Assembly (NCBI RefSeq): GCF_009914755.1 | Contig: NC_060926.1 | DNA: 64,000 nucleotides | Strand: one strand, 5' to 3' | Source of the DNA: the human T2T-CHM13v2.0 reference genome, Homo sapiens | Shown here: positions 44,722 to 60,297 of the stretch, piece by piece | Numbering within the stretch: position 1 is the first letter of the stretch | Layout of the letters: each line of letters starts with the position of its first letter | Notes under the pieces: model-generated | What the model was told of the DNA's origin: nothing | What the model saw: only the letters and a program-made list of their open reading frames with translations | The model's database searches: none | Program-made: the position numbers and the translations under genes

Positions 44722-47700
44722 CTGTATGGGGAAAAATGATTATTATTTTACTATAAAATTTTATTTAATATAAAAATAGAAATCAAAGAATTAGACACCA
44801 GTTGATGGCCTTCTTCTGCTTTATTCCTGGAATGATTAGATTATTCCAAGATTAATGTATCAAAAAGCACATTTCTAAATTTTTCTTAGCTTAACATATA
44901 AAATTATGCAAAATTATAGATACTGTACAAAAGCAATTTTTGATCCACTTCATCTGTGATAGAGTTCATGTTTTAAAAATGCTCTCATGAGTTTTTCTTG
45001 AGATATAATTCCAATTTTAAAGTTTGAAAAACTGCTAATTAAATAGTTATAATAATCCAGCATTATTTAAATCAACTTCTAAAAAGATCCAGAATTGTTA
45101 TTTATATTTAGAGTTTTCTTGAGGTTAAGAATAATCTTCTTTGTTAAAGACTGATTATTTCCAAAATAAACCATTGATGTTCTAATTACTGCCTCTAAAG
45201 TCATTATTAAAAATAAGAGGCTACAGGAAATGTTTAATTTGGATTTGTAAGAGAACCACTGTTTTCAGTTTCTAGAAATGCAGGCCTTCTTTCATCTATG
45301 TAAATCACCATATTACTTGAACAAAGCCTTTGTAATAAGGCATTAGCCAAGAAAATAAGATAATCAAAAATAAGAGAAAACAACTCCAATATTAAAAGTT
45401 CATTGTATTTTATTGTATAAGAAAACCTATACAGAACCACTGAGCAAGAAACAAAGCAGTGCATAACAGAGACTCTTTAAACAGTATCCTGGATGACAGG
45501 ATGAAAGACATGTAATTTTAAACAAGGAATTCGATTTTTTATTAAACCTCTTAGCTATGTAGAACAGGCCTGTTATTAGTAGTTTTATTGCCTTAGCAAA
45601 AGGCAGTTTTATGATTTTATTTGGTGACTTCACTTGCATCACATGAAATAGACTTACACCTTAATTCCTTTCTGTTCTAGCATATAAGCATTAGAAGACA
45701 GGACTCAAGTGTCTGCTGGCTGTAAAAATACTGGAGAAACTCATCTATAGCATGCAGAATACATATTCAGGTATTTATTATTTTAAGTAAACCATAAAAC
45801 CATTGATAATTTTACATATTAATGGTGATCACTTAACTTCGCATTTAATCTACAATACATAATTCGCGTTACCTTTCCCTTCACTTGAACTCACAAAATA
45901 TCTGTAAAGGGAGTGAATGTGAATACAGTTAAAATACCCTTACTCACTACTATGTTGAACTATTTGCAAATATTTTACTTCAAGCCATGGTATTATTAGC
46001 CATAAAAAGGATAGTAAATGAAATTCAAATGTGCTGAAACTTGAAAGGCATAGTTTAAAAAATTACATGTTGTGGTAGCAGCTATTAATTGTCTAAACTC
46101 AACTATGTGCAATACAATAAATTCTTTATCCAGAATCAGAGAAATTAATATTTTGGGGTTTTATGTTACGTGCCATTGAGTCAGAAAATAAAAAATTCCA
46201 TTTCATTATCTATGACAATTAAAGTAAGCCAAGGCTTACTTTTCTTTATTCAGTCACTGTTATTCTGCGTATACTCAAGCTCACCATACTTGAAACTAAC
46301 AGAATTACAGAATTCTAATGAGCAAAACCAAACAAAGCCCTCTTTACTATATGAATAAGAGTGTTTTTCAGCTCTTCCTGAAATCCAGTAGGACATAAAA
46401 ACATTTTTCTATTTCTCTCTTTCTCTTTTTTTAAGAAACAAGGTTTGAACTGTTGCTGTGCTGTATGATGTTTGAGTAAAGCATGCTTGTCATGTTTGCC
46501 TCAATCTGAGTTTCTCGTTAATTTTAACATCCATTATGTGACTAAGTGCAGAATAAATCTCTAAGTTCCTAATCTATAGAATTAGTTTTATTTCAGGAAT
46601 TTGTGATGTGATATATTACATTATGTCTATAATTATTATCACAGATATTGTGTGCTCACTGGTTGGAACAGGAATGATTGTTCTACAATAGTGTATCTAT
46701 GCTGATGAGTTATGGTGGCTCAAACAGATAATTCAAAATTTTTTTTGTGAGGGAGGCAGGGGAGGCCTGGCTGCTCTGCCTATTTTCTGTACATTGTCTC
46801 TATTGCTTCTTTAATTTGGATAGCTGTTAGAGAATTCCCATGTTGAGAATAAAGACTGATAGATGAAAGAAACATAATAAACATAATTGGATATGAATTC
46901 TTTTGAAAATTAAATTTAAATTGTTTACATTTCTAATTAAAATTAGCATTTTAAATATGATAATGGTACTTAAATATTGCTAAATGCAGGTGACAAATGT
47001 AGCCATTAAGTAACAATAAGTAATTTAAGAGGTGGAGGGAGATAAAATTTATCTTTCATTGTAATATTATTTCTCTCGTCCTTTGTTACAAAATTAAAGT
47101 TTATTCTAAATTGTATTAAGAATAATTACTATTAGCTTAACACAGAATTGTATTGTTGAATGATCACCTCTAAGGTCTTTTGGTCCTACCCTTCATTTTC
47201 AGAATTTTTTATATTTGTCGAGTCTTATATGAGAAGACTTGGGTCCACATTAGTATATAGGTAAGATATTAAGGAGTATGTTAATTTACTGTTATTTTAA
47301 TTTTAAAAGACAAAATTAAAGAGTTACTTTAGAAACATAAACATCACAATAAAAATTGAATGCTTATTAAGCTATATTCGTTTTAAAGATGAAATTCAGT
47401 GAAACTGATAGGAAAGCTTGTTATCTTGTTATTTATATATAATCTGAAATACAAATTACCATATTGTCTCAATTCTAAAAATATCCCACCTTTTTTTAAA
47501 TTTTAAAGATTCTGAAATCAGAATACAGTTTTAAAATCTATATGTAAACACAATATGATAGTTTCCCTTTTTTCCCCAGGCCAATACTAAATTATTGCTG
47601 CATTTTACACTTGATGTCATCTCAAAAATGGAGAAAAATAAGGTATCTCCAAAAGTGGAAAGATCTATTTGCTTATTTTGCAAATGTCTAGGTGAACCCT

Positions 47701-48302
47701 GCCCACAAAGAGCACAATTGGTCCCTTGAAGCCAGTGAGAATTAAAGCACTTATGAAGAGGAATATTAATAACGAAAACATTTTTAAAAGAGATGAAGTT
47801 AATATATTAAGATTGAAATGTCAAACAGATTATAGAGTTAGTTGCCAATTGGGAGAAGCTGGTTTTTGTTGTTTGTTTTGCCTATTCTAAGTCAAAGTAA
47901 ATAAACATGAGTTTGGATGCAAAGGGGTTAAAATTCCAAAAATAACTTAGAATGGGAGCAGAGAGATTTGCCCTTACCAATTTGTCTGCGTGGTCATCTG
48001 ATATGGTCTCCACTTTTACATTGTACTTTTGCATATATGGTTTATCTGCTAAAAGAGAGTCCATTCCACTGAAACACTTTGTGGAGGAGGCATGAGGGTA
48101 AATAGAAGTACAAACAATTAGGTAGCCAAGGAGAGATTTAATTGTGTTTGATATTACACAGCATGATTGACACAAGTGATGATTCCACAGTTCAGATAAC
48201 AAAATATTTACATGTATTACAAAGATGAGATTTCTACATAGAGATTATTTCTTTAGGGGTCTCCAAGGTAATGAATTCAAATATGGTGGACCTGTTTGGA
48301 AG

Positions 48303-48308
48303 TTTATT
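48303..48308 (-). terminator. Candidate proximal AATAAA poly(A) signal for Novex-3 transcript (another at 47100-47105)
   Basis: TTTATT on + strand ~80 nt after the Novex-3 stop; the used site cannot be determined from sequence. Confidence 0.3.
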
Positions 48309-48384
48309 AGATCCACATAATTTGGAAAATATGAAAGCACTCAGATCAATGCTAATAATTACTGAGGCACTAAAACATTACATT

Positions 48385-51300
48385 TTAAGTTAAGGTGAGT
48401 GCTGCAAAGCTCTCAGCCATTCCTGATTTGTTTGTAGCTACACACCTATACTCTCCTTCATCACTCTTTACTAAGCTTGTTATAAACAGGTTATGGAACC
48501 CTGTGCCACTTTCCTCAACAGTGAACCTTCTTCCTTGGACTAATTTTCCATCTTTGTACCAGTAAACCGTGGGTCTTGGAGAGCCACGAACTAAGCACTG
48601 AAAATATGCTGCTGTACCTATTGGTGCATAACAGTCAGAAATACCTTTGATAAACCTGGGAGGCCCTTCCACCACCTGAAATTCAAAAAAACTGTCTGTG
48701 TAGTTGCTCTTTAAGACCAATTCTTCCATTAAACTGCTTAAAGTCACTTTGCTTTTCTTTGCTATCACAGCAAATATTTCAGAATCTCCCATGGTGAGGA
48801 ATCCCCGACAGATAGCCTCTCCTACACAATTCACAGCTCTGCACCTGTATGTTGCACTATCAGAAAGACAGACATTTCGAATTTTAAGAGTGTGACTTCC
48901 CTTCTCCTCGCTAATCACGTATTTAATATTATCTGGCTCAATACACATATATTCTTTATACCACTTAACTTCGGGAGTCGGGATCCCTATGACTGAACAT
49001 TTGAATACAGCATCTGAATTTTCTGGAATTTTAAAATCACAAATAGGCATTATAAAGCGAGGAGGCATTTCAAATACTTCTAAATCAATTTTTAGTTCTT
49101 TGTCTTCTCCCTCCCTTGAATCCATATTTGGATCTACAAAATTAAATGGAAGAACATCTAGACTCACAATCATACTTTTATGGTCAGGAGTAAATTCGGG
49201 AACTGTCACTATTTTCACCTGCTTCTCAAATTCTTTAACGTCTTTTTCACTTAATTCAACTTCCAGGACAATTTCTTGAGGAGAAGGTGTTCTTGATGAT
49301 GTGGTGTGTTCCAAATCAAACTCCATGACATGCTGATGTGTTACTGGAGGTGGTAGTGCCACCACTCTTTCTTCCTGGGGCATTATGTCTACATTTGCAA
49401 AGCTCTTTGCTTCCCCTATGATGTTTACAGCATGACACATGTACTCTCCCCCTTCTCCTTTTTGAATGTTAGAAATTTCCAGTGAACACACATTACCCAC
49501 TCTTTCCATTTTGATTCTTTCATCTGGCTCTAGTAAAGATTTATTTCGATACCATTTCACACCAGGAACTGGAAGACCTTCAACTTCAACAATGAAGCCT
49601 AGTGTTGTGTTTTCATATACCTTCCTTTTGGTCAGAGGTTCAATAAAAGATGGAGGCATTTCATTGTCTTTTGGCTCAATGGCTTCATTGGGTGTACCAA
49701 ATGAATCGGAACGCCATATTTCATAAGCTGAACCCCTCTCTTCTGTAGGTGTGTAGAAATGCTCATTTGGTGTACCGTCTTCCCTTTCTATTTTTGATGG
49801 ATATGTTTTAAAAGTACCAGTGGGGTTTGGTCCTCCAGTAGGAATAGAATATCTCTCTAGTGCCTCCCCTGGGGGTGTGGAATATCGCTCTAGAGTCTCT
49901 CCTGGGGGTGTGGAGTATCTCTCCAGAGTCTCTCCTGGGGGTGTGGAATATCTCTCTAGAGTCTCTCCTGGGGGTGTGGAGTATCTCTCTAGAGTCTCTC
50001 CTGGAGGTGTGGAGTATCTCTCTAGTGTCTCCCCTGGGGGTGTGGAGTATCTTTCTCCTACCTCACCTTCGGAAGGTGTTGAATATCTTTCAGCAACTTC
50101 CCCTAAAGGTGTGGAATATCTTTCAACTGTCTCACCTCCTGAATGTATTGAGGATTGTTTAGTTATATCTGAAGGATTAAAATATAAGTCAGGGGACTTT
50201 GGAGATTCAAAATATTCAACAGATGATGGTGGGGTATAAAACTGATCTAACTCAGATATTTCTTCACTGGTTGTACTTCCCACACCAATGGAAATGTCAG
50301 ACTCAGGAGAAAGTGGACGACCTAGTGATTCCTGTTTCTGGTTGTAGTATTCATACACAGTGTTGAAAGTTACTTCTTCCACCTCCATTGAAGTGATTGA
50401 TTCACTCTGGACAAGCTTTGCCTGGTCTCTGGTGTCTTTAGTTTCAGGAACCTCACGCTTTCCAGCAGCAAGTAAATATTGTGTTAGGGAGGTCTCAGAT
50501 TCTGCTGCCTCAGTGGTATGTGCCTCATCTAATTTAGGAATATTTTGAGAAAAACTAGTTTCTATCATTTCTCCTTCTAAAGTGGAGAAAGAAGCTTCAT
50601 TCTGAACTTGAACTTCTTCATAACATTTTTCTTCTCCAGAGGCATGAATGTTTGTACTTATTTGTTCACCTGGATTCTGTTGTTCTTCAGTCATCAAGAG
50701 TGGGAAGCACTGACTCAGGGAGAGCTGTCTATGGAGTGTGTCAGCTTCCTGAACATCACCTCTGTGGTCTTCCAAAGTGGCATCTGTATATTCCTGTGTC
50801 CCACCATCCTGCTTTGGAAATGCTGCCAACTCTGGTTCTAGAGTGCATTCTTCTTCCATTTCACCAACCCCTAAAGGCTTTTCCTCACTTGCTGCTTTTT
50901 TCAAATGTGAGATGGAACTTCTGCCTCCATTTTCTAGAGGACAACTTTTCTCAGAAAGATCAGTTTCTTCTATATCTGCAGATGAGGTTGGAAGTAGGGC
51001 ACATGATTCACTATAGATTTCTTCAGAAAAGGATTTAAGAGAAAGATCAGTTTTTAAAATGTCTAAGTTTTGTTCCTGTACATGTCGGACTTCTTTTTCT
51101 AAAGAAATGGAATTTTCATCAATACTACTTTTCTCCACCATAGTTCTATTTGAAAGCTCTTGACTGGAAGAAATTTCTTGACTGGCAAATACATTATTTT
51201 GCACACTTTTAGAGATATTGTGTGTGTCAGGTTGTAACGTTTCAGGGCTAGGAATTTTTTCTTTATAATGTATTTCCTGCTGTTCCCTAGTTTCTTGCCC

Positions 51301-54300
51301 TTGGAACTCCAGAGCTGGATCTCCTATATGAGAATACATTTGTTTTAGATCAAATACAATGTTCTCAGTGTCAGCAGGATGTTGGATTTTAAAATAAGCT
51401 TCTTCTGGTTGACCACTATCTAATTCTTGGAATTTCACATCTGTGTGTTTTATTTGAGTGTGAAACTGCTTTAAGTCAAATGTAATAGGTGATTCATGTT
51501 CAGCTCTTTTAGAAATTGCAGGTTTATCTATAAGACTTATTTTTTCCTGTTGTTCCCTTTCTTGTGCGTCAAATTCTTTATGAGTTTGAGAGGAAAGCAG
51601 CTTTAAATTTATTGCAATGTTAGATGAATCTGATTCAGTATTTGGAGACATTTTCTCTGCCTGATACATATTTGCATTTAGATTGCTTGATCTTGATTCT
51701 CTTTGCTTTAATGAAAAGGCTTTGTCATCAATCTTCTTTTGAGGAGGATTAACAATTGATGTTCTGGTAGGTCTTTTTTCTAGAACTCCTTTTTCTACAT
51801 GTAATTTTTCAAATTCGATAATTCTATGCTTCACCTTTTTCCCCGGGTAGTGTATCTCTTCACCAAGGGATTCTTCATATACAATGGCAGATGAATCTTT
51901 TGTATTGTAACTGTCAGAAATTCTCTCAGAGTGAATATTTGGTAAATAGTCACTTTGGGCACATTCTTGTACATTTTCCTTTTCTGATCTACCAAGTTTT
52001 CCAAAATTATTTCTTATTTCTTTCTTAATAGTGACATCACTGAAATCATCAACAAATGGATAAACAGTACCCTCTGCTTGGTGCAGCTTTGATTTTTCAC
52101 TTACATGTCTCTCTTTCCCTTCAGCCTGACATTGTATGAATTCAGCCCTGATGGGCTTGCTGATTTTTATGGTTCTTGAAGCACCATGCACAAATCTGGG
52201 AATTTTTTCTCTAGAAGGTATGCAACGCACCTGCTCTTTCTGGTCTATTTGCTCAATAGTCTCAAGGCTTTGAAAATAGTCCCTTACTGAATATTCTTTT
52301 ACATTTGTCCAGGGAGTAAAGGGACCAGCTGGATAATCATAAAAATGTGCCCTTACAGATTCTCCCTGGTCTTGCAGTTGCTGATCTCTGGAATATTTTC
52401 CATAAATTTCACCAATATTTTCGAATTGACTATTTTCTCTATAAGTGACAGGCTCCACTGTTAGATCTGAAACACTTTCAACTGCCCCTGAATTGTTTTC
52501 AGCAACACATTTATATTTTCCAGAATCTTGAGAATTAACATCCTTAATATATAATTGGTGGCTACAATTAACTTCTTCAAACTGAAACTTCTGGTTCTGC
52601 TTTAAAAGGACTCCATTTTGAAACCATGTTACAACTGGCTGGGGCTCACCAGATATTAAACATTCAAGAATGATGGAATCCCCTTCTCTACACCTGGCAT
52701 GCTTTGGCATTTCTTGTAACATTTTTGGTGGTTCATTAGTAATATCAGACAAAAATACAAATCTGTGTTTTGGTGATTGAGTAACTTGATCTTGAGGCAT
52801 TGCTTTAGGTTCCAGCTCCTCAGTTTGAAACACTTCTTTAGACTCTTTATCCTGTTCTGGGATAGGAGTAGCTGCTGTTACCTGAATTTCTACAGGAAAG
52901 GAAAGCAATTCTGTGTCTCCAGAGGGAGGAACTGGTGGGTTAGTTTTTAACAAATGAAGATTTGTTTGGCCCTCTTGACTCATAGATGGATGGGCGCCTT
53001 TTGCTTGGTCAAACACCAATGCTAGCTCTTCTTCCTCATCCAAGTAGTCATGGAACACTGGGACTTTATGTGCTTTGACATCATGTTTTTGTTTTGCTTT
53101 CACTTTAAGCATACTGGTTGTTTTTACTGTTCCATATTGGTTAAATAGCACACAAGTAATAGAACCTTCATTCTGATGATGAACAGATGAAAGAGTTAAT
53201 ATTGAATAGTTTTCCAACGAATGAATGATAAAGTTTTGATTACGTGGGATTGGCATGTCATTGTTATACCACGTCACTATAGGTTGAGGATATCCTTGAA
53301 AATGACACACAAAATTACAACTGTCACCTTCATAAACTTCTTGAGATTCAATTTCTTGAAGAAATGAAGGTGGGCAACGTTGTGGGCGTTTTCGAAAAGA
53401 ATTTTCAAAAAATCTCATGTTTTCTTCCTTCTGTTCGGTTTTGAATTCATCAATTCGTGTAGAAGCAGAGAGTTGTAATTCTCTCAAATCATCCTTTTTT
53501 ATTCTTTCACTAGCTATTTCTTCACTTTCTTCAACATTTACAAGTGTACCAAAAGATTCGCTGGCATGTGGTGTAATAGCTTGAGACACATTTTCAGGAG
53601 TCTCATATACTTCCTCCTTCTCACATACATTAGTGATATATGTGGATGACTCTCCAATTGTAGTATTGGCCATAATTTCTTCCAGCTGTCCTCTTGCTTG
53701 GGTATTTTCATTTACTAGAATTTCACCATATAAATGGTCTTTTGGTAGACTTTCCTTTACCAGTGCTTCTTGGCTCATTCTTATTTCAGTCTGGAAAATT
53801 TCTTCATCAACAATAGTTTGAAAGCTTGTGGGAAGTTCCTCAGATTCTATATTTTGATCCATTTGATTAGAAAGGGCATGTGGATTTTGCACAATACTCT
53901 CAGCTGAATGATCTACCTTATAACTTTCAGCTAGATCAGACATAGATCTGATTTTCATGCCCTCTCTAGAGAACAGAATATCTTTATCACTAGCTTCACT
54001 TCTGAAAGTTCTTGAGCTTATTTCAGAAGACGTATCTAAAAGAGATAATTTCTTTTTCTCCATTAACGTTTTTCTAGCCTCCCTTAAACGTTGCAACTTC
54101 ACTTTGGTCTCCTTGTCCAGGAAACTTTCACCTACATTAAGCCAACCTCTTATGTCAGATTTACTTTCTAAATATTCTTCATCATACATGTAATCTGTTT
54201 TCTTGGCAGAACTCATTGTCTTAAAATGTATAGTTCTCATCATTCCCTTTTGTTCCACATCTTGTTTTTTGTTAAAGGGAGAGCCAGTAAACCTCAGGTC

Positions 54301-54839
54301 AACCTTTATCCTATCTTCTCCCCTTTCAACTAAAGCCTCCACATTTTCATGTGTCCGTTCTGCTCTTTTCAGAAATTCTAAATATTTCTCATCTTGCCCT
54401 TTTTGGATAACAAGCAATGATGCAGTTGATTCTGCAGACCCTTCACTATTAATTGCTAGTAACCTATAACTTCCAGAATCTCTGTCTTGGACCCTTTTAA
54501 TCTCTAAGCTGGAAGAGTGATGGTGTAAATCACTCTCAGCTTTTATAATCCGACGAAGACCTGTTGGGATGGGCCGATTGTTATGAAACCAAGTCATTTC
54601 TGGAGTTGGACAGGCAATTAATCTACATGTAAAAACAACCGGTTCACCCTCTAAAACATATTTAAATGTAAGTTTCTGGGTAAAAGAAGGCTTAAAATAT
54701 TCAGGCCAGGAGCTTGTAGATGATATTCTACTTGCATATCTTTTAGCAGCCATGGATTTGTGGTCTATGTCTTCAGAATCTGAAAAGGCGTCACGTGTAT
54801 CCCTTTCTGAATGTTCAGATTCCCCCTCAGAGAATAATT
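48385..54839 (-). CDS. TTN: TTN exon 48, Novex-3 alternative terminal exon (coding part; six Ig domains I18-I23 + unique sequence, ends ...AALTLT*)
   Basis: T13-CCAG acceptor, ~2150 open codons starting ELFSEGESEH, six I-set motifs, TAA at 48385-48387. Confidence 0.97.
49840..50124 (-). repeat. TTN: Coding 33-bp minisatellite in Novex-3 (ERYSTPPGETL)n, 9 ERYS units
   Basis: Five exact ERYSTPPGETL, one ERYSTPPGEAL and three diverged flanking units. Confidence 0.95.
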
Positions 54840-55921
54840 CTGGAAAAAAAAAAAAACCTTTACTATTTTCCATAGAACTTGAAAAAGTTGAAAGTAAATA
54901 AAATTGCAAAATAGGAAATGAAATAAATTGCATGCTACAGATCTCACAAATCCATAGAAAAATTCACTCACCATATTTGTTCGAATAAACGCAACACCAT
55001 GCTCTGTTTAAAAGATTCTGACACGAAAATCGTTCGTTGTCTGGTCTTTTCTTCAAACTGTTGAAATTTCTTCTTGAACAAGCAAAAATGCATTTCAAAA
55101 TAACATGTTCCTGTGCATATTTGTTTTGAGAGCAGGAAAACTTTGTTCTTTTGATGGCTAAGTGGAAAATCTTACCTGACTTGCAGAGAGTGGAATAAAC
55201 GCCCTTTCTGATTCTTTTGATTGTAGATTAAATTATTATATTTTTGAGAATCAACTATTTAAAGAGTATATACAAGAACTATAACCATAAATAATTAGCT
55301 AAAATAAAATGAGAAGGCGTTTATTCGAACTAATACAGCCATAAAGTCACAATGTTATGCAAAGAAAAGCAGGCAATAAGGATCACATAAGGCAGCTATC
55401 TGCAAGCCAGTGTAAGAGACATATCAATGTTAAAATGATATATGTGAATGAAGTGTAAACCAGATGGGAATGTAATGTTTTCACACAACCTCAGTAAAGT
55501 AGCATTTCAATCATAATTCATTCATGACATTGCATTCTGAGAATGACAGCTAGGTTATTGTCTATTTTCAATGTAATTCACCGTGATTTTGAAAACAAAC
55601 TTCTACTTCATGATTTCATGCATTAAGATGACAACTTTTCCTAATATACACTTTTGGAAATGACTGCAAACATAAAGTTGAATTTGGCTGATAAATTTTA
55701 AATACAAAATTTTAAATTAACTTACAATAAATTACTGTGAAATGCATGTAACCATCAAAATTCTAAACCAAGCATGCGACATAGTAATATATACTCTAAG
55801 AGATATATTTGTATATCTATGTCATTTTTTTCTCAATAATACTAAGAGAAAGAAGGCAACTCAAGGATCCTATTAATCCTTTAGAATTTCTACTTAAATC
55901 TCACATCCATTATAACAATAC

Positions 55922-59945: not shown

Positions 59946-60297
59946 GCTTTAAGTACAGTAAGTAATACTGTACTTGCTTTAAGTACAGTAAGTAATACTG
60001 TACTTGCTTTAAGTACAGTAAGTAATACTGTACTTGCTTTAAGTACAGTAAGTAATACTGTACTTGCTTTAAGTACAGTAAGTAATACTGTACTTGCTTT
60101 AAGTACAGTAAGTAATACTGTACTTGCTTTAAGTACAGTAAGTAATACTGTACTTGCTTTAAGTACAGTAAGTAATACTGTACTTGCTTTAAGTACAGTA
60201 AGTAATACTGTACTTGCTTTAAGTACAGTAAGTAATACTGTACTTGCTTTAAGTACAGTAAGTAATACTGTACTTGCTTTAAGTACAGTAAGTAATA
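59946..60297. repeat. Perfect 30-bp tandem array (GCTTT AAGTACAGTA AGTAA TACTGTACTT) x ~11.7, each unit an inverted repeat
   Basis: AAGTACAGTA recurs every 30 nt from 59951 to 60281 with no mismatches. Confidence 0.98.

What the first reader, a model, noticed from the sequence alone, without database searches (positions are those of the whole stretch)
54966..55339. One docking sequence, two competing selectors, two cryptic donors upstream of Novex-3 (Dscam-like RNA switch?)
Seen: + strand GCGTTTATTCGAAC (55317-55330) is the exact reverse complement of GTTCGAATAAACGC (54979-54992), 14/14, and the overlapping GGCGTTTATTC (55316-55326) is the exact reverse complement of GAATAAACGCC (55193-55203), 11/11. 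In the TTN pre-mRNA the upstream element can therefore pair with either downstream site but not both. Each downstream site lies just 5' of a consensus donor: CAG|GTAAGA (exon end 55176) and ATG|GTGAGT (exon end 54972); with G-U pairs the longer helix (55317-55339 with 54970-54992, one mismatch) runs across the GU itself. All three copies keep CpGs in an otherwise CpG-poor AT-rich intron. The module sits in intron 47, 130-500 nt before the Novex-3 acceptor, the decision point between truncated Novex-3 titin and full-length N2B/N2A titin. Established: docking-site/selector pairing controls mutually exclusive exons in Drosophila Dscam1 and 14-3-3. Inference: an unannotated RNA-structure switch that hides or exposes decoy 5' splice sites and tunes Novex-3 use. 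I know of no description of it, but could not search.
Basis: partly seen in the sequence, partly recalled or inferred. Interest (0 to 1): 0.85.

Follow-up and report, generated by a model that had tools for sequence, protein, structure and literature searches.

The report
Conserved RNA pairing boxes before Novex-3
Three short matching sequence boxes in the titin intron just before the Novex-3 exon are real and are kept in distant species, one of them lies at the end of an already published small extra exon (48'), and together they look like an RNA fold that could hide or free that exon's splice site.

Summary
In detail: 14/14 and 11/11 complementarity, two strong donor-like sites, retained CpGs. 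The interpretation needs correcting. The "cryptic" donor at 54972 is very probably the donor of exon 48', a conserved 85/100-bp cassette exon reported between exons 47 and 48 by Chen et al. 2018. Here it reads 55072/55057..54972, 101/86 nt, with an in-frame TGA. The far box is the last 20 nt of that exon.

By energy and shuffling the repeat is unremarkable. However, open frames translated from the same intron of five unnamed other-species contigs are identical to human almost only over the helix arms: 355/358 arm cells, against 132/1035 for other intron. The intronic docking box is included, and a further 18-bp stem (55417-55399 x 55187-55170) buries the second donor. All detectable substitutions fall at unpaired positions or turn G.U into A-U.

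Best reading (about 0.5): a conserved RNA-structure module with mutually exclusive pairings that gates the exon 48' donor and silences a decoy donor. It resembles ATE1 or BRD2/3 regulation more than Dscam. No nucleotide-level covariation or experimental data could be obtained.

The parts
55399..55417 (-). H1 5' arm: upstream arm of the outer stem, complementary to the decoy donor region.
   Evidence: It pairs 6+12 bp (one bulged A at 55411, one G.U) with 55187-55170 in the minimum-energy and centroid folds, with probability 0.99 in the whole-intron model. It is conserved in 2 of 2 other-species frames that span it. Their only detectable changes are at 55418, 55411 and 55398, all unpaired.
55311..55339 (-). 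Docking box: 55339-55317 pairs with the far selector (H3) and 55326-55311 pairs with the near selector (H2). It contains AAUAAA at 55325-55320.
   Evidence: Complementarity. The peptide AVLVRINAFS encoded by 55339-55310 is identical in 3 other-species frames, and LVRINAFS in a fourth. In the fourth frame, 55339 G>A and 55336 G>A both turn G.U into A-U.
55193..55208 (-). Near selector (H2 3' arm).
   Evidence: It forms 13+2 bp with 55326-55311. The duplex energy is -20.7 kcal/mol. It is conserved in 5 of 5 spanning frames, which read it in three different frames.
55170..55187 (-). H1 3' arm, containing the donor-like CAG|GUAAGA (last 'exon' base 55176).
   Evidence: Donor score 8.7. Its probability of being unpaired is 0.02 in the whole-intron model. 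It is conserved in 4 of 4 frames counted; in the most divergent one identity ends exactly at 55170.
54972..55072 (-). Candidate exon 48': 101 nt, or 86 nt from the alternative acceptor with first base 55057. The in-frame stop TGA lies at 55055-55053.
   Evidence: Sequence reading. Published exon of 85/100 bp with a 15-bp alternative segment, conserved, frame-shifting. CpG observed/expected is 1.68, against 0.23-0.27 elsewhere in the window. The acceptor region and the mid-exon are partly conserved.
54970..54992 (-). Far selector (H3 3' arm): the last 21 nt of exon 48' plus the GU of its donor.
   Evidence: 14 bp exact plus 8 further pairs beyond one mismatch. The duplex energy is -28.9 kcal/mol. 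It is conserved in 3 of 3 spanning frames, read in two frames.
54966..54974 (-). Donor of exon 48' (ATG|GTGAGT).
   Evidence: Score 8.9, second best of the 58 GT in the intron. One other species has a G at +4 (54968).
54840..54860 (-). Polypyrimidine tract and AG of the annotated Novex-3 (exon 48) acceptor, 131 nt downstream of the far selector.
   Evidence: Hub annotation (exon 47205-54839). Acceptor score 13.8. Sequence.

Best explanation
The 450 nt before the Novex-3 acceptor hold a conserved RNA-structure module in the TTN pre-mRNA. It consists of five boxes that form three helices.

- H1 (55417-55399 x 55187-55170) buries a strong donor-like site, CAG|GUAAGA.
- H2 (docking box 55326-55311 x near selector 55208-55193) sits inside H1.
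- H3 (docking box 55339-55317 x far selector 54992-54970) covers the last 21 nt and the GU of exon 48'. Exon 48' is the published alternative exon that puts a stop codon in front of the Novex-3 coding sequence.

H2 and H3 use the same docking nucleotides, so they exclude each other.

Inferred mechanism: with H1+H2 closed, which forms first during transcription, the exon 48' donor is free and the exon can be included. This gives a Novex-3 message that terminates 1-6 codons after exon 47 and is probably subject to nonsense-mediated decay. When the docking box pairs with the exon end instead (H3), the donor is masked and the exon is looped out, giving the canonical 47-48 Novex-3 junction.

What is shown: the complementarity, the mutual exclusion, the identity of the exon by position and size, and conservation of all arms at the level of translated frames.

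What is inferred: that the helices form in vivo, and the direction of the splicing effect.
For: 1. Complementarity and exclusivity. The matches are 14/14 and 11/11, extending to 22 and 13+2 pairs. Duplex energies are -28.9 and -20.7 kcal/mol. The docking box is paired to one or the other with summed probability of about 1 in every context folded.

2. Exon identity. Chen et al. 2018 (abstract, sections 3.1, 3.4, 3.7, discussion and legends read) report three things. [quoted passage not shown] It is an exon 48' of 85 or 100 bp with a 15-bp alternative part. It shifts the frame and is not changed by Rbm20 knockout. The only plausible candidate in the human intron is 55072/55057..54972. It has exactly the 15-nt alternative acceptor spacing and the second-best donor of the intron. 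CpG observed/expected there is 1.68.

3. Conservation. Five open frames from orthologous introns of unnamed contigs match human sense-strand frames by exact peptides of at least 5 residues. The match covers 355 of 358 nucleotide-by-species cells in the helix arms. It covers 117 of 301 cells in the rest of exon 48' and 132 of 1035 in other intron. P0002 was found through exon 48' alone, so its identity over the docking box, near selector and H1 arms is an unbiased test.

4. Block edges match helix ends. The docking block 55339-55310 equals the union of the H3 and H2 arms. Its 5' half (55339-55327) is used only by H3. In the most divergent frame (P0008) identity stops at 55170, the last H1 pair.

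5. Substitution pattern. Detectable changes in or beside the arms fall at 55418, 55411 (the bulge), 55398 and 55188 (the two sides of a U x C mismatch) and 55192 (an internal loop). The other two, 55339 and 55336 G>A, turn G.U into A-U opposite a fixed U.

6. The 256-nt H1+H2 domain folds at -60.07 kcal/mol, z = -3.80 against shuffles.
Against: 1. In every context of 1082 nt or more, H3 has probability of about 0 and H2 of about 0.98-1.0. This holds even when the H1 arms are sequestered as a stand-in for a pseudoknot. H3 wins only in the 411-nt context (0.78) and ties in the 561-nt one (0.50).

2. The energy is not exceptional against real sequence. The window holding the domain ranks 65 of 1993 for composition-corrected folding energy. 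Two of 69 annotated donors have as good an upstream duplex. The 561-nt fold has z = +0.28.

3. The plus strand folds equally well (z = -4.06), so nothing marks the sense RNA rather than the DNA as the selected molecule.

4. No pair changes on both sides. The arms are essentially invariant, which says nothing about pairing as opposed to other constraints.

5. Only translated frames were available, so third codon positions are unseen. The docking box is read in a single frame.

6. Four of the five homologues were retrieved with queries that contained the boxes, so how general the conservation is remains unknown.

7. The human candidate exon is 101/86 nt, not the printed 100/85. Figure 4D and the supplements could not be seen.

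8. There are no structure-probing, duplex or splicing data.
Confidence: 0.5

Rival explanations
1. The boxes are conserved for separate, linear reasons, and their complementarity is incidental. The far box would serve as the exon 48' end, an enhancer and its 5' splice site. The near box plus GUAAGA would be the end of another unannotated or ancestral exon, or a U1-binding site. The docking box would be a branch-site/polypyrimidine region or a protein-binding site.
For: - Both selectors sit 11-17 nt upstream of good donors.
- A moderate acceptor lies 18 nt downstream of the docking box (first exon base 55298, score 6.8). It would define a 123-nt segment ending at 55176.
- No pair shows a change on both sides.
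- A 14-nt inverted repeat is not rare by chance.
Against: - It needs three or more independent constraints that happen to give 22, 15 and 18 pairs.
- The edges of the conserved blocks coincide with helix ends, and the changes avoid paired positions.
- The 5' half of the docking box has no splice-signal reading.
- RT-PCR across exons 44-48 gave the 47-48 and 47-48'-48 products in all species; the only further band, in frog, carried exon 45 as well, and no exon ending at 55176 was reported.
Confidence: 0.25
2. This is a DNA-level regulatory module. The shared 10-nt core occurs three times, in both orientations, as a cluster of sites for one DNA-binding protein in an intronic enhancer or silencer.
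For: - The orientation-independent repeat and the equal folding of both strands are what a DNA motif cluster would give.
- The CpGs are retained.
Against: - Complementarity to each selector extends beyond the shared core, and in different directions: 19-22 nt to the far box and 13+2 to the near box.
- The separate H1 pair of boxes does not contain the core but is equally conserved.
- RefSeq lists no functional element here (hub table).
- No motif library was available to test this.
Confidence: 0.1
3. The fold exists to mask an intronic polyadenylation signal. The docking box contains AAUAAA (55325-55320), with U-rich sequence downstream, and both selectors carry its complement. Pairing would prevent, or regulate, premature 3' end formation after exon 47.
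For: The hexamer and its context are in the sequence. Its probability of being unpaired is 0.00-0.10 in the four folds with the docking box and near selector free, 0.05 with the near selector blocked, and 1.00 only where the docking box itself is constrained.
Against: - The hexamer is common in AT-rich introns.
- Two of its six bases are third codon positions and so unseen in other species.
- An upstream UGUA is lost in P0008 (55336 G>A).
- No transcript ending here appears in the hub's annotation or in the papers read.
Confidence: 0.08
4. The arrangement is chance, or a neutral small inverted duplication with no function.
For: Nineteen of 100 shuffled windows contain an equal repeat. The thermodynamic rank is ordinary.
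Against: All boxes are identical at the peptide level in five other-species frames whose remaining intron is largely unalignable. The stretch is single-copy in the genome, so it is not a repeat family.
Confidence: 0.03

Closest known systems
Competing long-range RNA structures in human ATE1 (Kalinina et al. 2020/21, PMC7797038; abstract start seen in the search listing)
   Same: One conserved element can pair with two others that compete for it. The outcome is a splicing choice, and sensitivity to co-transcriptional folding is proposed there too.
   Different: ATE1 regulates two homologous mutually exclusive exons through intronic elements. Here there is one cassette exon, one selector is exonic and overlaps the donor, and nothing has been tested.
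RNA structures that control poison exons in BRD2 and BRD3 (Petrova et al. 2024, PMC10789245; abstract read)
   Same: [quoted passage not shown]
   Different: In BRD2/3 the pairs lie in the flanking introns, and the effect was shown with minigenes and antisense oligonucleotides. Here one arm is the exon's own 3' end, a competitor helix exists, and there is no experiment.
Catalogue of pairs of conserved complementary regions in human genes (Kalmykova et al. 2021, PMC8052449; abstract and passages read)
   Same: These are conserved complementary intronic boxes near splice sites. The paper reports that such pairs suppress looped-out exons and obstruct cryptic or inactive splice sites.
   Different: 'TTN' does not occur in the main text (0 occurrences). 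The paper gives false-discovery rates of 10% to over 50%.
Docking-site/selector control of Drosophila Dscam1 and 14-3-3 zeta (recalled; a 2026 Dscam1 paper, PMC12962786, seen only in the listing)
   Same: One docking sequence with alternative complementary partners, only one of which can pair at a time.
   Different: There is no cluster of homologous variable exons here. The selectors lie inside exon ends across the donors rather than in the intron next to each variant, so pairing is predicted to repress rather than to activate.
Stem-loops that sequester a 5' splice site, such as MAPT exon 10 (recalled; PMC3479178 seen by title and abstract start in the listing)
   Same: A helix covering the exon end and the first intron bases is expected to limit U1 access.
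   Different: The MAPT stem is a local hairpin. H3 spans 324 nt, loops out the whole exon and has a competitor.
TTN exon 48' (Chen et al. 2018, PMC5852582)
   Same: Same place, same 15-nt alternative segment, conserved, frame-shifting with a stop.
   Different: The human sequence gives 101/86 nt, not 100/85. The sections and passages of the paper read here name no RNA structure and no regulator; RBM20 is excluded.

Membership tests
Dscam1 / 14-3-3 zeta type docking-selector system | A tandem array of homologous, mutually exclusive exon variants | tested here: not met
   Exon 48' and the segment ending at 55176 share only the 10-11-nt box. RT-PCR in the literature found exon 48' and no second cassette from this intron (the extra frog product also carried exon 45).
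Dscam1 / 14-3-3 zeta type docking-selector system | One docking site complementary to two or more selectors, with mutually exclusive pairings | tested here: met
   Both helices use 55326-55317. Their probabilities sum to about 1.
Dscam1 / 14-3-3 zeta type docking-selector system | Selectors lie in the intron next to each variable exon, so that pairing activates that exon | tested here: not met
   Each selector lies 11-17 nt upstream of a donor, and the far one lies inside exon 48'. H3 runs across the donor GU; H2 stops short of the 55176 donor, which H1 covers. Pairing would therefore mask.
Dscam1 / 14-3-3 zeta type docking-selector system | Docking site and selectors conserved, with compensatory changes | tested here: inconclusive
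   The boxes are conserved at the level of translated frames in 3-5 other-species sequences. The only changes seen are two G.U to A-U changes; no pair changes on both sides. No nucleotide alignment was obtainable.
[quoted passage not shown] | Both arms lie in conserved non-coding elements of one gene, within 10 kb | tested here: met
   The arms lie 82-324 nt apart. Conservation was shown by peptide proxy. The far arm lies in an exon that RefSeq does not annotate (hub table).
[quoted passage not shown] | A stable duplex of about 10 nt or more | tested here: met
   H3 -28.9 and H2 -20.7 kcal/mol. The segment around 55175, which holds the H1 3' arm, has its best upstream duplex at -29.3.
[quoted passage not shown] | Listed in the published catalogue | not testable with these tools
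   The catalogue is in supplements and a track hub. TTN is absent from the main text.
Structure-controlled poison exon (BRD2/BRD3 type) | A conserved cassette exon that introduces a premature stop | tested here: met
   After exon 47 both forms reach TGA at 55055-55053, 81 nt before the exon's end. The paper reports a frameshift and a stop. Decay of the message was not tested.
Structure-controlled poison exon (BRD2/BRD3 type) | Inclusion changes when the helix is disrupted and is restored when the helix is restored | not testable with these tools
   This needs a minigene or antisense experiment.
TTN exon 48' (Chen et al. 2018) | Between exons 47 and 48; 100 or 85 bp; a 15-bp segment used alternatively | tested here: inconclusive
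   The position and the 15-nt spacing match exactly, but the length is 101/86. The only exact 100-nt AG..GT pair in the intron has negative site scores. Figure 4D was not visible.
TTN exon 48' (Chen et al. 2018) | Highly conserved across vertebrates | tested here: met
   CpG observed/expected is 1.68. The acceptor region, the mid-exon and especially the 3' end are shared with other-species frames.

The most novel reading that the evidence does not exclude
This would be a deeply conserved, RBM20-independent RNA switch made of three helices, one of them pseudoknotted to the others. It would sit in front of the Novex-3 exon and set the ratio of productive to poison-exon-containing Novex-3 titin mRNA. 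The near selector would act as a kinetic trap formed first during transcription, and the exon's own 3' end would be the thermodynamically stronger partner, so that output depends on elongation or helicase activity. The same fold would keep a consensus decoy donor and an AAUAAA silent.
Probability: 0.3. Interest if true: 0.75.

Novelty: new member of a known kind. Interest (0 to 1): 0.6.

Why it matters
TTN is the main gene for dilated cardiomyopathy, and what controls its Novex-3 branch is unknown. The paper that found exon 48' showed that RBM20, the master titin splicing factor, does not regulate it.

A conserved set of complementary boxes gives a concrete, cheaply testable mechanism for why a stop-carrying exon is kept across the vertebrates that paper tested. 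It also gives defined antisense targets (55339-55311, 55208-55193) for shifting Novex-3 output.

There are practical consequences for variant interpretation. Intronic variants in 55170-55417, and synonymous-looking changes in the unannotated exon 54972-55072, would currently be read as deep-intronic and ignored.

Tried and rejected
- Transposon or repeat relic: the 406-nt stretch is single-copy in the genome at E of 10 or better, and I saw no target-site duplication by eye.
- Known RNA family: there are only two Rfam matches, far below their gathering scores (25.8 vs 90; 18.1 vs 55.5).
- Protein-coding exon: the 67-codon open frame across exon 48' is not TTN's frame (it shares exon 47's phase only from a non-candidate AG at 55111-55110, with a stop at the Novex-3 junction), and other species carry indels inside the exon.
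- Thermodynamic significance: this is not convincing once real sequence is the background and shows no strand asymmetry. A shuffle-based sliding z-score was abandoned as too slow (95 of 997 windows) and replaced by a regression on composition.
- H3 at equilibrium in long contexts: not predicted.
- Other hits of the protein search: P0001 (a repetitive 2887-aa protein) and P0003 do not look like this region and were dropped. P0004 starts at the exon 48' donor and shares no peptide of 5 or more residues, so it was left out of the counts.
- Literature: neither 14-mer occurs in any held paper. Searches combining titin or Novex with RNA-structure terms returned no paper on RNA structure at this locus; one search was mostly noise from the gel brand name.
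Full report
**1. The observation**

TTN lies on the minus strand, so the pre-mRNA runs from 55978 (exon 47) down to 54839 (the Novex-3 acceptor). Plus-strand 55317-55330 is the reverse complement of 54979-54992 (14/14), and 55316-55326 is the reverse complement of 55193-55203 (11/11).

In the RNA the long helix extends to 55339-55317 x 54992-54970. It has one A x A mismatch and four G.U pairs, and it covers the first two intron bases of ATG|GTGAGT.

I built a matrix from the 69 annotated TTN donors of the window. On it the two donor-like sites score 8.9 (last exon base 54972) and 8.7 (55176). These are the 36th and 35th percentiles of real donors, and the 2nd and 3rd best of the 58 GT in the intron.

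**2. Chance**

Taken alone, the repeat is not significant.
- An exact inverted repeat of at least 14 nt within 500 nt appears in 19 of 100 dinucleotide shuffles of the window, with a mean of 0.22. In the real window it is the only one apart from homopolymer and low-complexity cases.
- The best duplex between the exon-end/donor segment and the 30-500 nt upstream of it is -25.1 kcal/mol. That value is matched or beaten by 2 of 69 annotated donors and by 112 of 9056 sampled positions.
- The 561-nt fold has z = +0.28.
- The stretch is single-copy in the genome and matches no Rfam family.

**3. One 'cryptic' donor belongs to a published exon**

Chen et al. 2018 (PMC5852582; outline, passages and sections 2 and 3.7 read; figures and supplements not visible) report the following:
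- RT-PCR and sequencing show it to be a new exon, 48'.
- The exon is 85 or 100 bp long, depending on a 15-bp segment.
- It is present in Novex-3 transcripts of all species tested.
- It shifts the frame and introduces a stop.
- It is unaffected by Rbm20 knockout.

On the sense strand the donor at 54972 is preceded by an AG whose first exon base is 55072, and by a second AG exactly 15 nt further in (first base 55057). That gives 101 or 86 nt, one more than printed. The only exact 100-nt AG..GT pair in the intron has negative scores for both sites. I therefore take 55072/55057..54972 to be exon 48' and leave the one-base difference open.

After exon 47, which ends with the first base of a codon, both forms reach TGA at 55055-55053. 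That stop lies 81 nt before the exon's end.

The exon has 5 CpGs in 101 nt, an observed/expected ratio of 1.68. The ratio is 0.23 for non-exon sequence and 0.27 for annotated exons of the window. The far selector is thus the last 20 nt of a conserved exon, which by itself explains why its CpGs survive.

**4. A third helix**

The empirical scan flagged the segment around 55175 with a duplex of -29.3 kcal/mol. Folding 55420-55165 gives a long hairpin.
- The outer stem H1 (55417-55412 and 55410-55399 with 55187-55170) has 18 pairs, one bulged A and one G.U. It buries CAG|GUAAGA completely.
- Inside it lies H2, formed by the docking box and the near selector (13+2 pairs).
- The minimum free energy is -60.07 kcal/mol, z = -3.80, with 1 of 200 shuffles as good.

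H3 (docking box with exon end) crosses H1, so H3 together with H1 would be a pseudoknot.

Two cautions apply. The plus strand folds as well (z = -4.06). Against real sequence, the grid window holding the domain ranks only 65 of 1993 for composition-corrected energy.

**5. Modelled equilibrium**

The docking box is always paired, but its partner depends on the context folded.

| Context | H3 | H2 |
|---|---|---|
| 411 nt | 0.78 | 0.21 |
| 561 nt | 0.50 | 0.50 |
| whole intron (1082 nt) | 0.00 | 0.996 |
| 1279 nt | 0.00 | 0.996 |
| 2101 nt | 0.00 | 0.996 |

Sequestering the H1 arms, as a stand-in for a pseudoknot, does not rescue H3 (0.00 and 0.006). In the whole-intron model the decoy donor is 2% unpaired, and the AAUAAA inside the docking box is 0% unpaired. 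Equilibrium models of more than 1 kb are weak evidence, but as far as they go they favour H1+H2 as the default state.

**6. Conservation**

No vertebrate DNA is held by the tools, so I used translated frames as a proxy.

A full HMMER search with the human 67-codon frame across exon 48' found P0002. This is a 246-residue open frame that is colinear with the human sense strand from about 55497 to 54959, switching frames at indels. It is evidently a spurious gene call on the orthologous intron of another species.

Word-indexed searches with P0002 and with alignments found P0004, P0005, P0006, P0007 and P0008. P0001 and P0003 are unrelated and were dropped. P0004 begins at the exon 48' donor and shares no peptide of 5 or more residues with the human frames.

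Exact shared peptides of at least 5 residues mark these islands:

| Island | Feature | Frames conserved / frames spanning |
|---|---|---|
| 55416-55395 | H1 5' arm | 2/2 |
| 55339-55307 | docking box | 4/4 |
| 55215-55164 | near selector, H1 3' arm, GUAAGA | near selector 5/5; H1 3' arm 4/4 |
| 55088-55056 | exon 48' acceptors | 2/4 |
| 55042-55012 | mid-exon | 3/4 |
| 54998-54963 | far selector and donor | 3/3 |

Counted as nucleotide-by-species cells inside each frame's span, coverage is 355 of 358 in the helix arms, 117 of 301 in the rest of exon 48', and 132 of 1035 in other intron. Spans were set by each frame's first and last match, so the six docking positions 55339-55334 of P0008 are not in that count.

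P0008 is the most divergent. It covers 13 of 204 'other intron' cells and 5 of 80 exon-interior cells, yet it carries all three boxes in order.

Several caveats apply:
- Only P0002 was found independently of the boxes.
- P0002, P0004 and P0006 are related to one another (84% identity).
- Species are unknown.
- Third codon positions are unseen.
- The docking box is read in one frame only.

**7. Substitution pattern**

Codon-level reading places every detectable change in or beside the arms at a position that the model leaves unpaired:
- 55418, just outside H1;
- 55411, the bulged A;
- 55398 and 55188, the two sides of a U x C mismatch, each seen in a different species;
- 55192, in the two-base loop between H1 and H2, where human C faces T in all four frames that show it.

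The only exceptions are 55339 and 55336 G>A in P0008. Both convert a G.U pair of H3 into A-U, opposite bases fixed by a Trp codon and a stop codon.

The edges of the blocks also fit the model. The docking block (55339-55310) equals the union of the H3 and H2 arms, and its 5' half is used by H3 only. Changes resume at 55342-55340 and at 55309-55303. In P0008, identity ends at 55170, the last pair of H1.

No pair was seen to change on both sides.

**8. Mechanism**

Shown: three conserved helices, two of them mutually exclusive; one covers the donor of a real alternative exon, and another covers a consensus decoy donor.

Inferred:
- H1+H2 forms first as the RNA emerges and leaves the exon 48' donor free.
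- H3, the stronger duplex (-28.9 against -20.7 kcal/mol), masks positions -21 to +2 of that exon end and donor and loops out the exon together with its weak acceptor (score 3.3, 1st percentile).
- The balance between the two states would then set the ratio of the 47-48'-48 message to the 47-48 message. [quoted passage not shown]
- Because the stop lies 81 nt upstream of the last junction, the 48' form is a likely decay substrate. This last step rests on established knowledge of nonsense-mediated decay, not on a result here.

**9. Comparison with what is known**

- Dscam-type system: membership fails on two defining features (see the membership table).
- Human ATE1: the logic is closest to this case, where two elements compete for a third (listing).
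- BRD2/BRD3: conserved complementary regions control poison exons there (abstract).
- PCCR catalogue: it reports in general that conserved complementary regions suppress looped-out exons and obstruct cryptic splice sites.
- Print status: neither box sequence occurs in any held paper. 'TTN' is absent from the main text of the catalogue paper, and its supplements could not be opened. Searches joining titin or Novex with RNA-structure terms gave nothing on this locus.

**10. Verdict**

The cross-species footprint lifts this from a chance-level repeat to a credible conserved RNA-structure element. It remains unproven at nucleotide resolution and in the cell.

If real, it is a new member of a known kind. 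Interest 0.6.

Noticed in passing
window 59951-60290: This is a tandem array of a unit of about 30 nt that is itself a small hairpin. It lies in the intron between the Novex-1 and Novex-2 exons. Windows of 256 nt here have by far the most negative composition-corrected folding energy of the 64 kb (about -105 kcal/mol, residual z -6.7). The array is not in the hub's list of masked repeats.
   Followed up: partly
window 55320-55325 (minus strand): The docking box contains a canonical AAUAAA, with a UGUA 9 nt upstream and U-rich sequence downstream. Both selectors carry its complement, so the hexamer is always paired in the models with the docking box and near selector left free (unpaired probability 0.00-0.10).
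   Followed up: partly
window 55176-55298 (minus strand): A 123-nt exon-like segment runs between a moderate acceptor (first base 55298, score 6.8, directly downstream of the docking box) and the buried donor at 55176. After exon 47 it meets an in-frame TAG within seven codons. The RT-PCR described by Chen et al. reports no such exon.
   Followed up: partly
window 55192, and near 55340: Human differs from all other-species frames that show these sites. It has C instead of T at 55192, in the loop between H1 and H2. It also has an apparent 1-nt deletion just upstream of the docking box, which shifts the human frame relative to P0002, P0005 and P0007.
   Followed up: no
window 54972-55072: The exon 48' candidate is 101/86 nt in this assembly, against 100/85 bp in print. 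P0002 and P0006 each imply a net 3-nt shorter exon, reached by different indels, and P0008 implies an exon about 18 nt shorter. The interior tolerates indels while the 3' end does not.
   Followed up: partly
window 55053-55055: The in-frame TGA of exon 48' reads as Trp (TGG) in P0006. In that species the TTN frame would stay open to the end of the exon and terminate only in the frame-shifted Novex-3 exon.
   Followed up: no
P0001: The top hit of the protein search (E 3e-12) is a 2887-residue protein made of many near-identical repeats, each with a short segment resembling part of the exon 48' frame. I judged it a repeat-inflated score unrelated to TTN.
   Followed up: no
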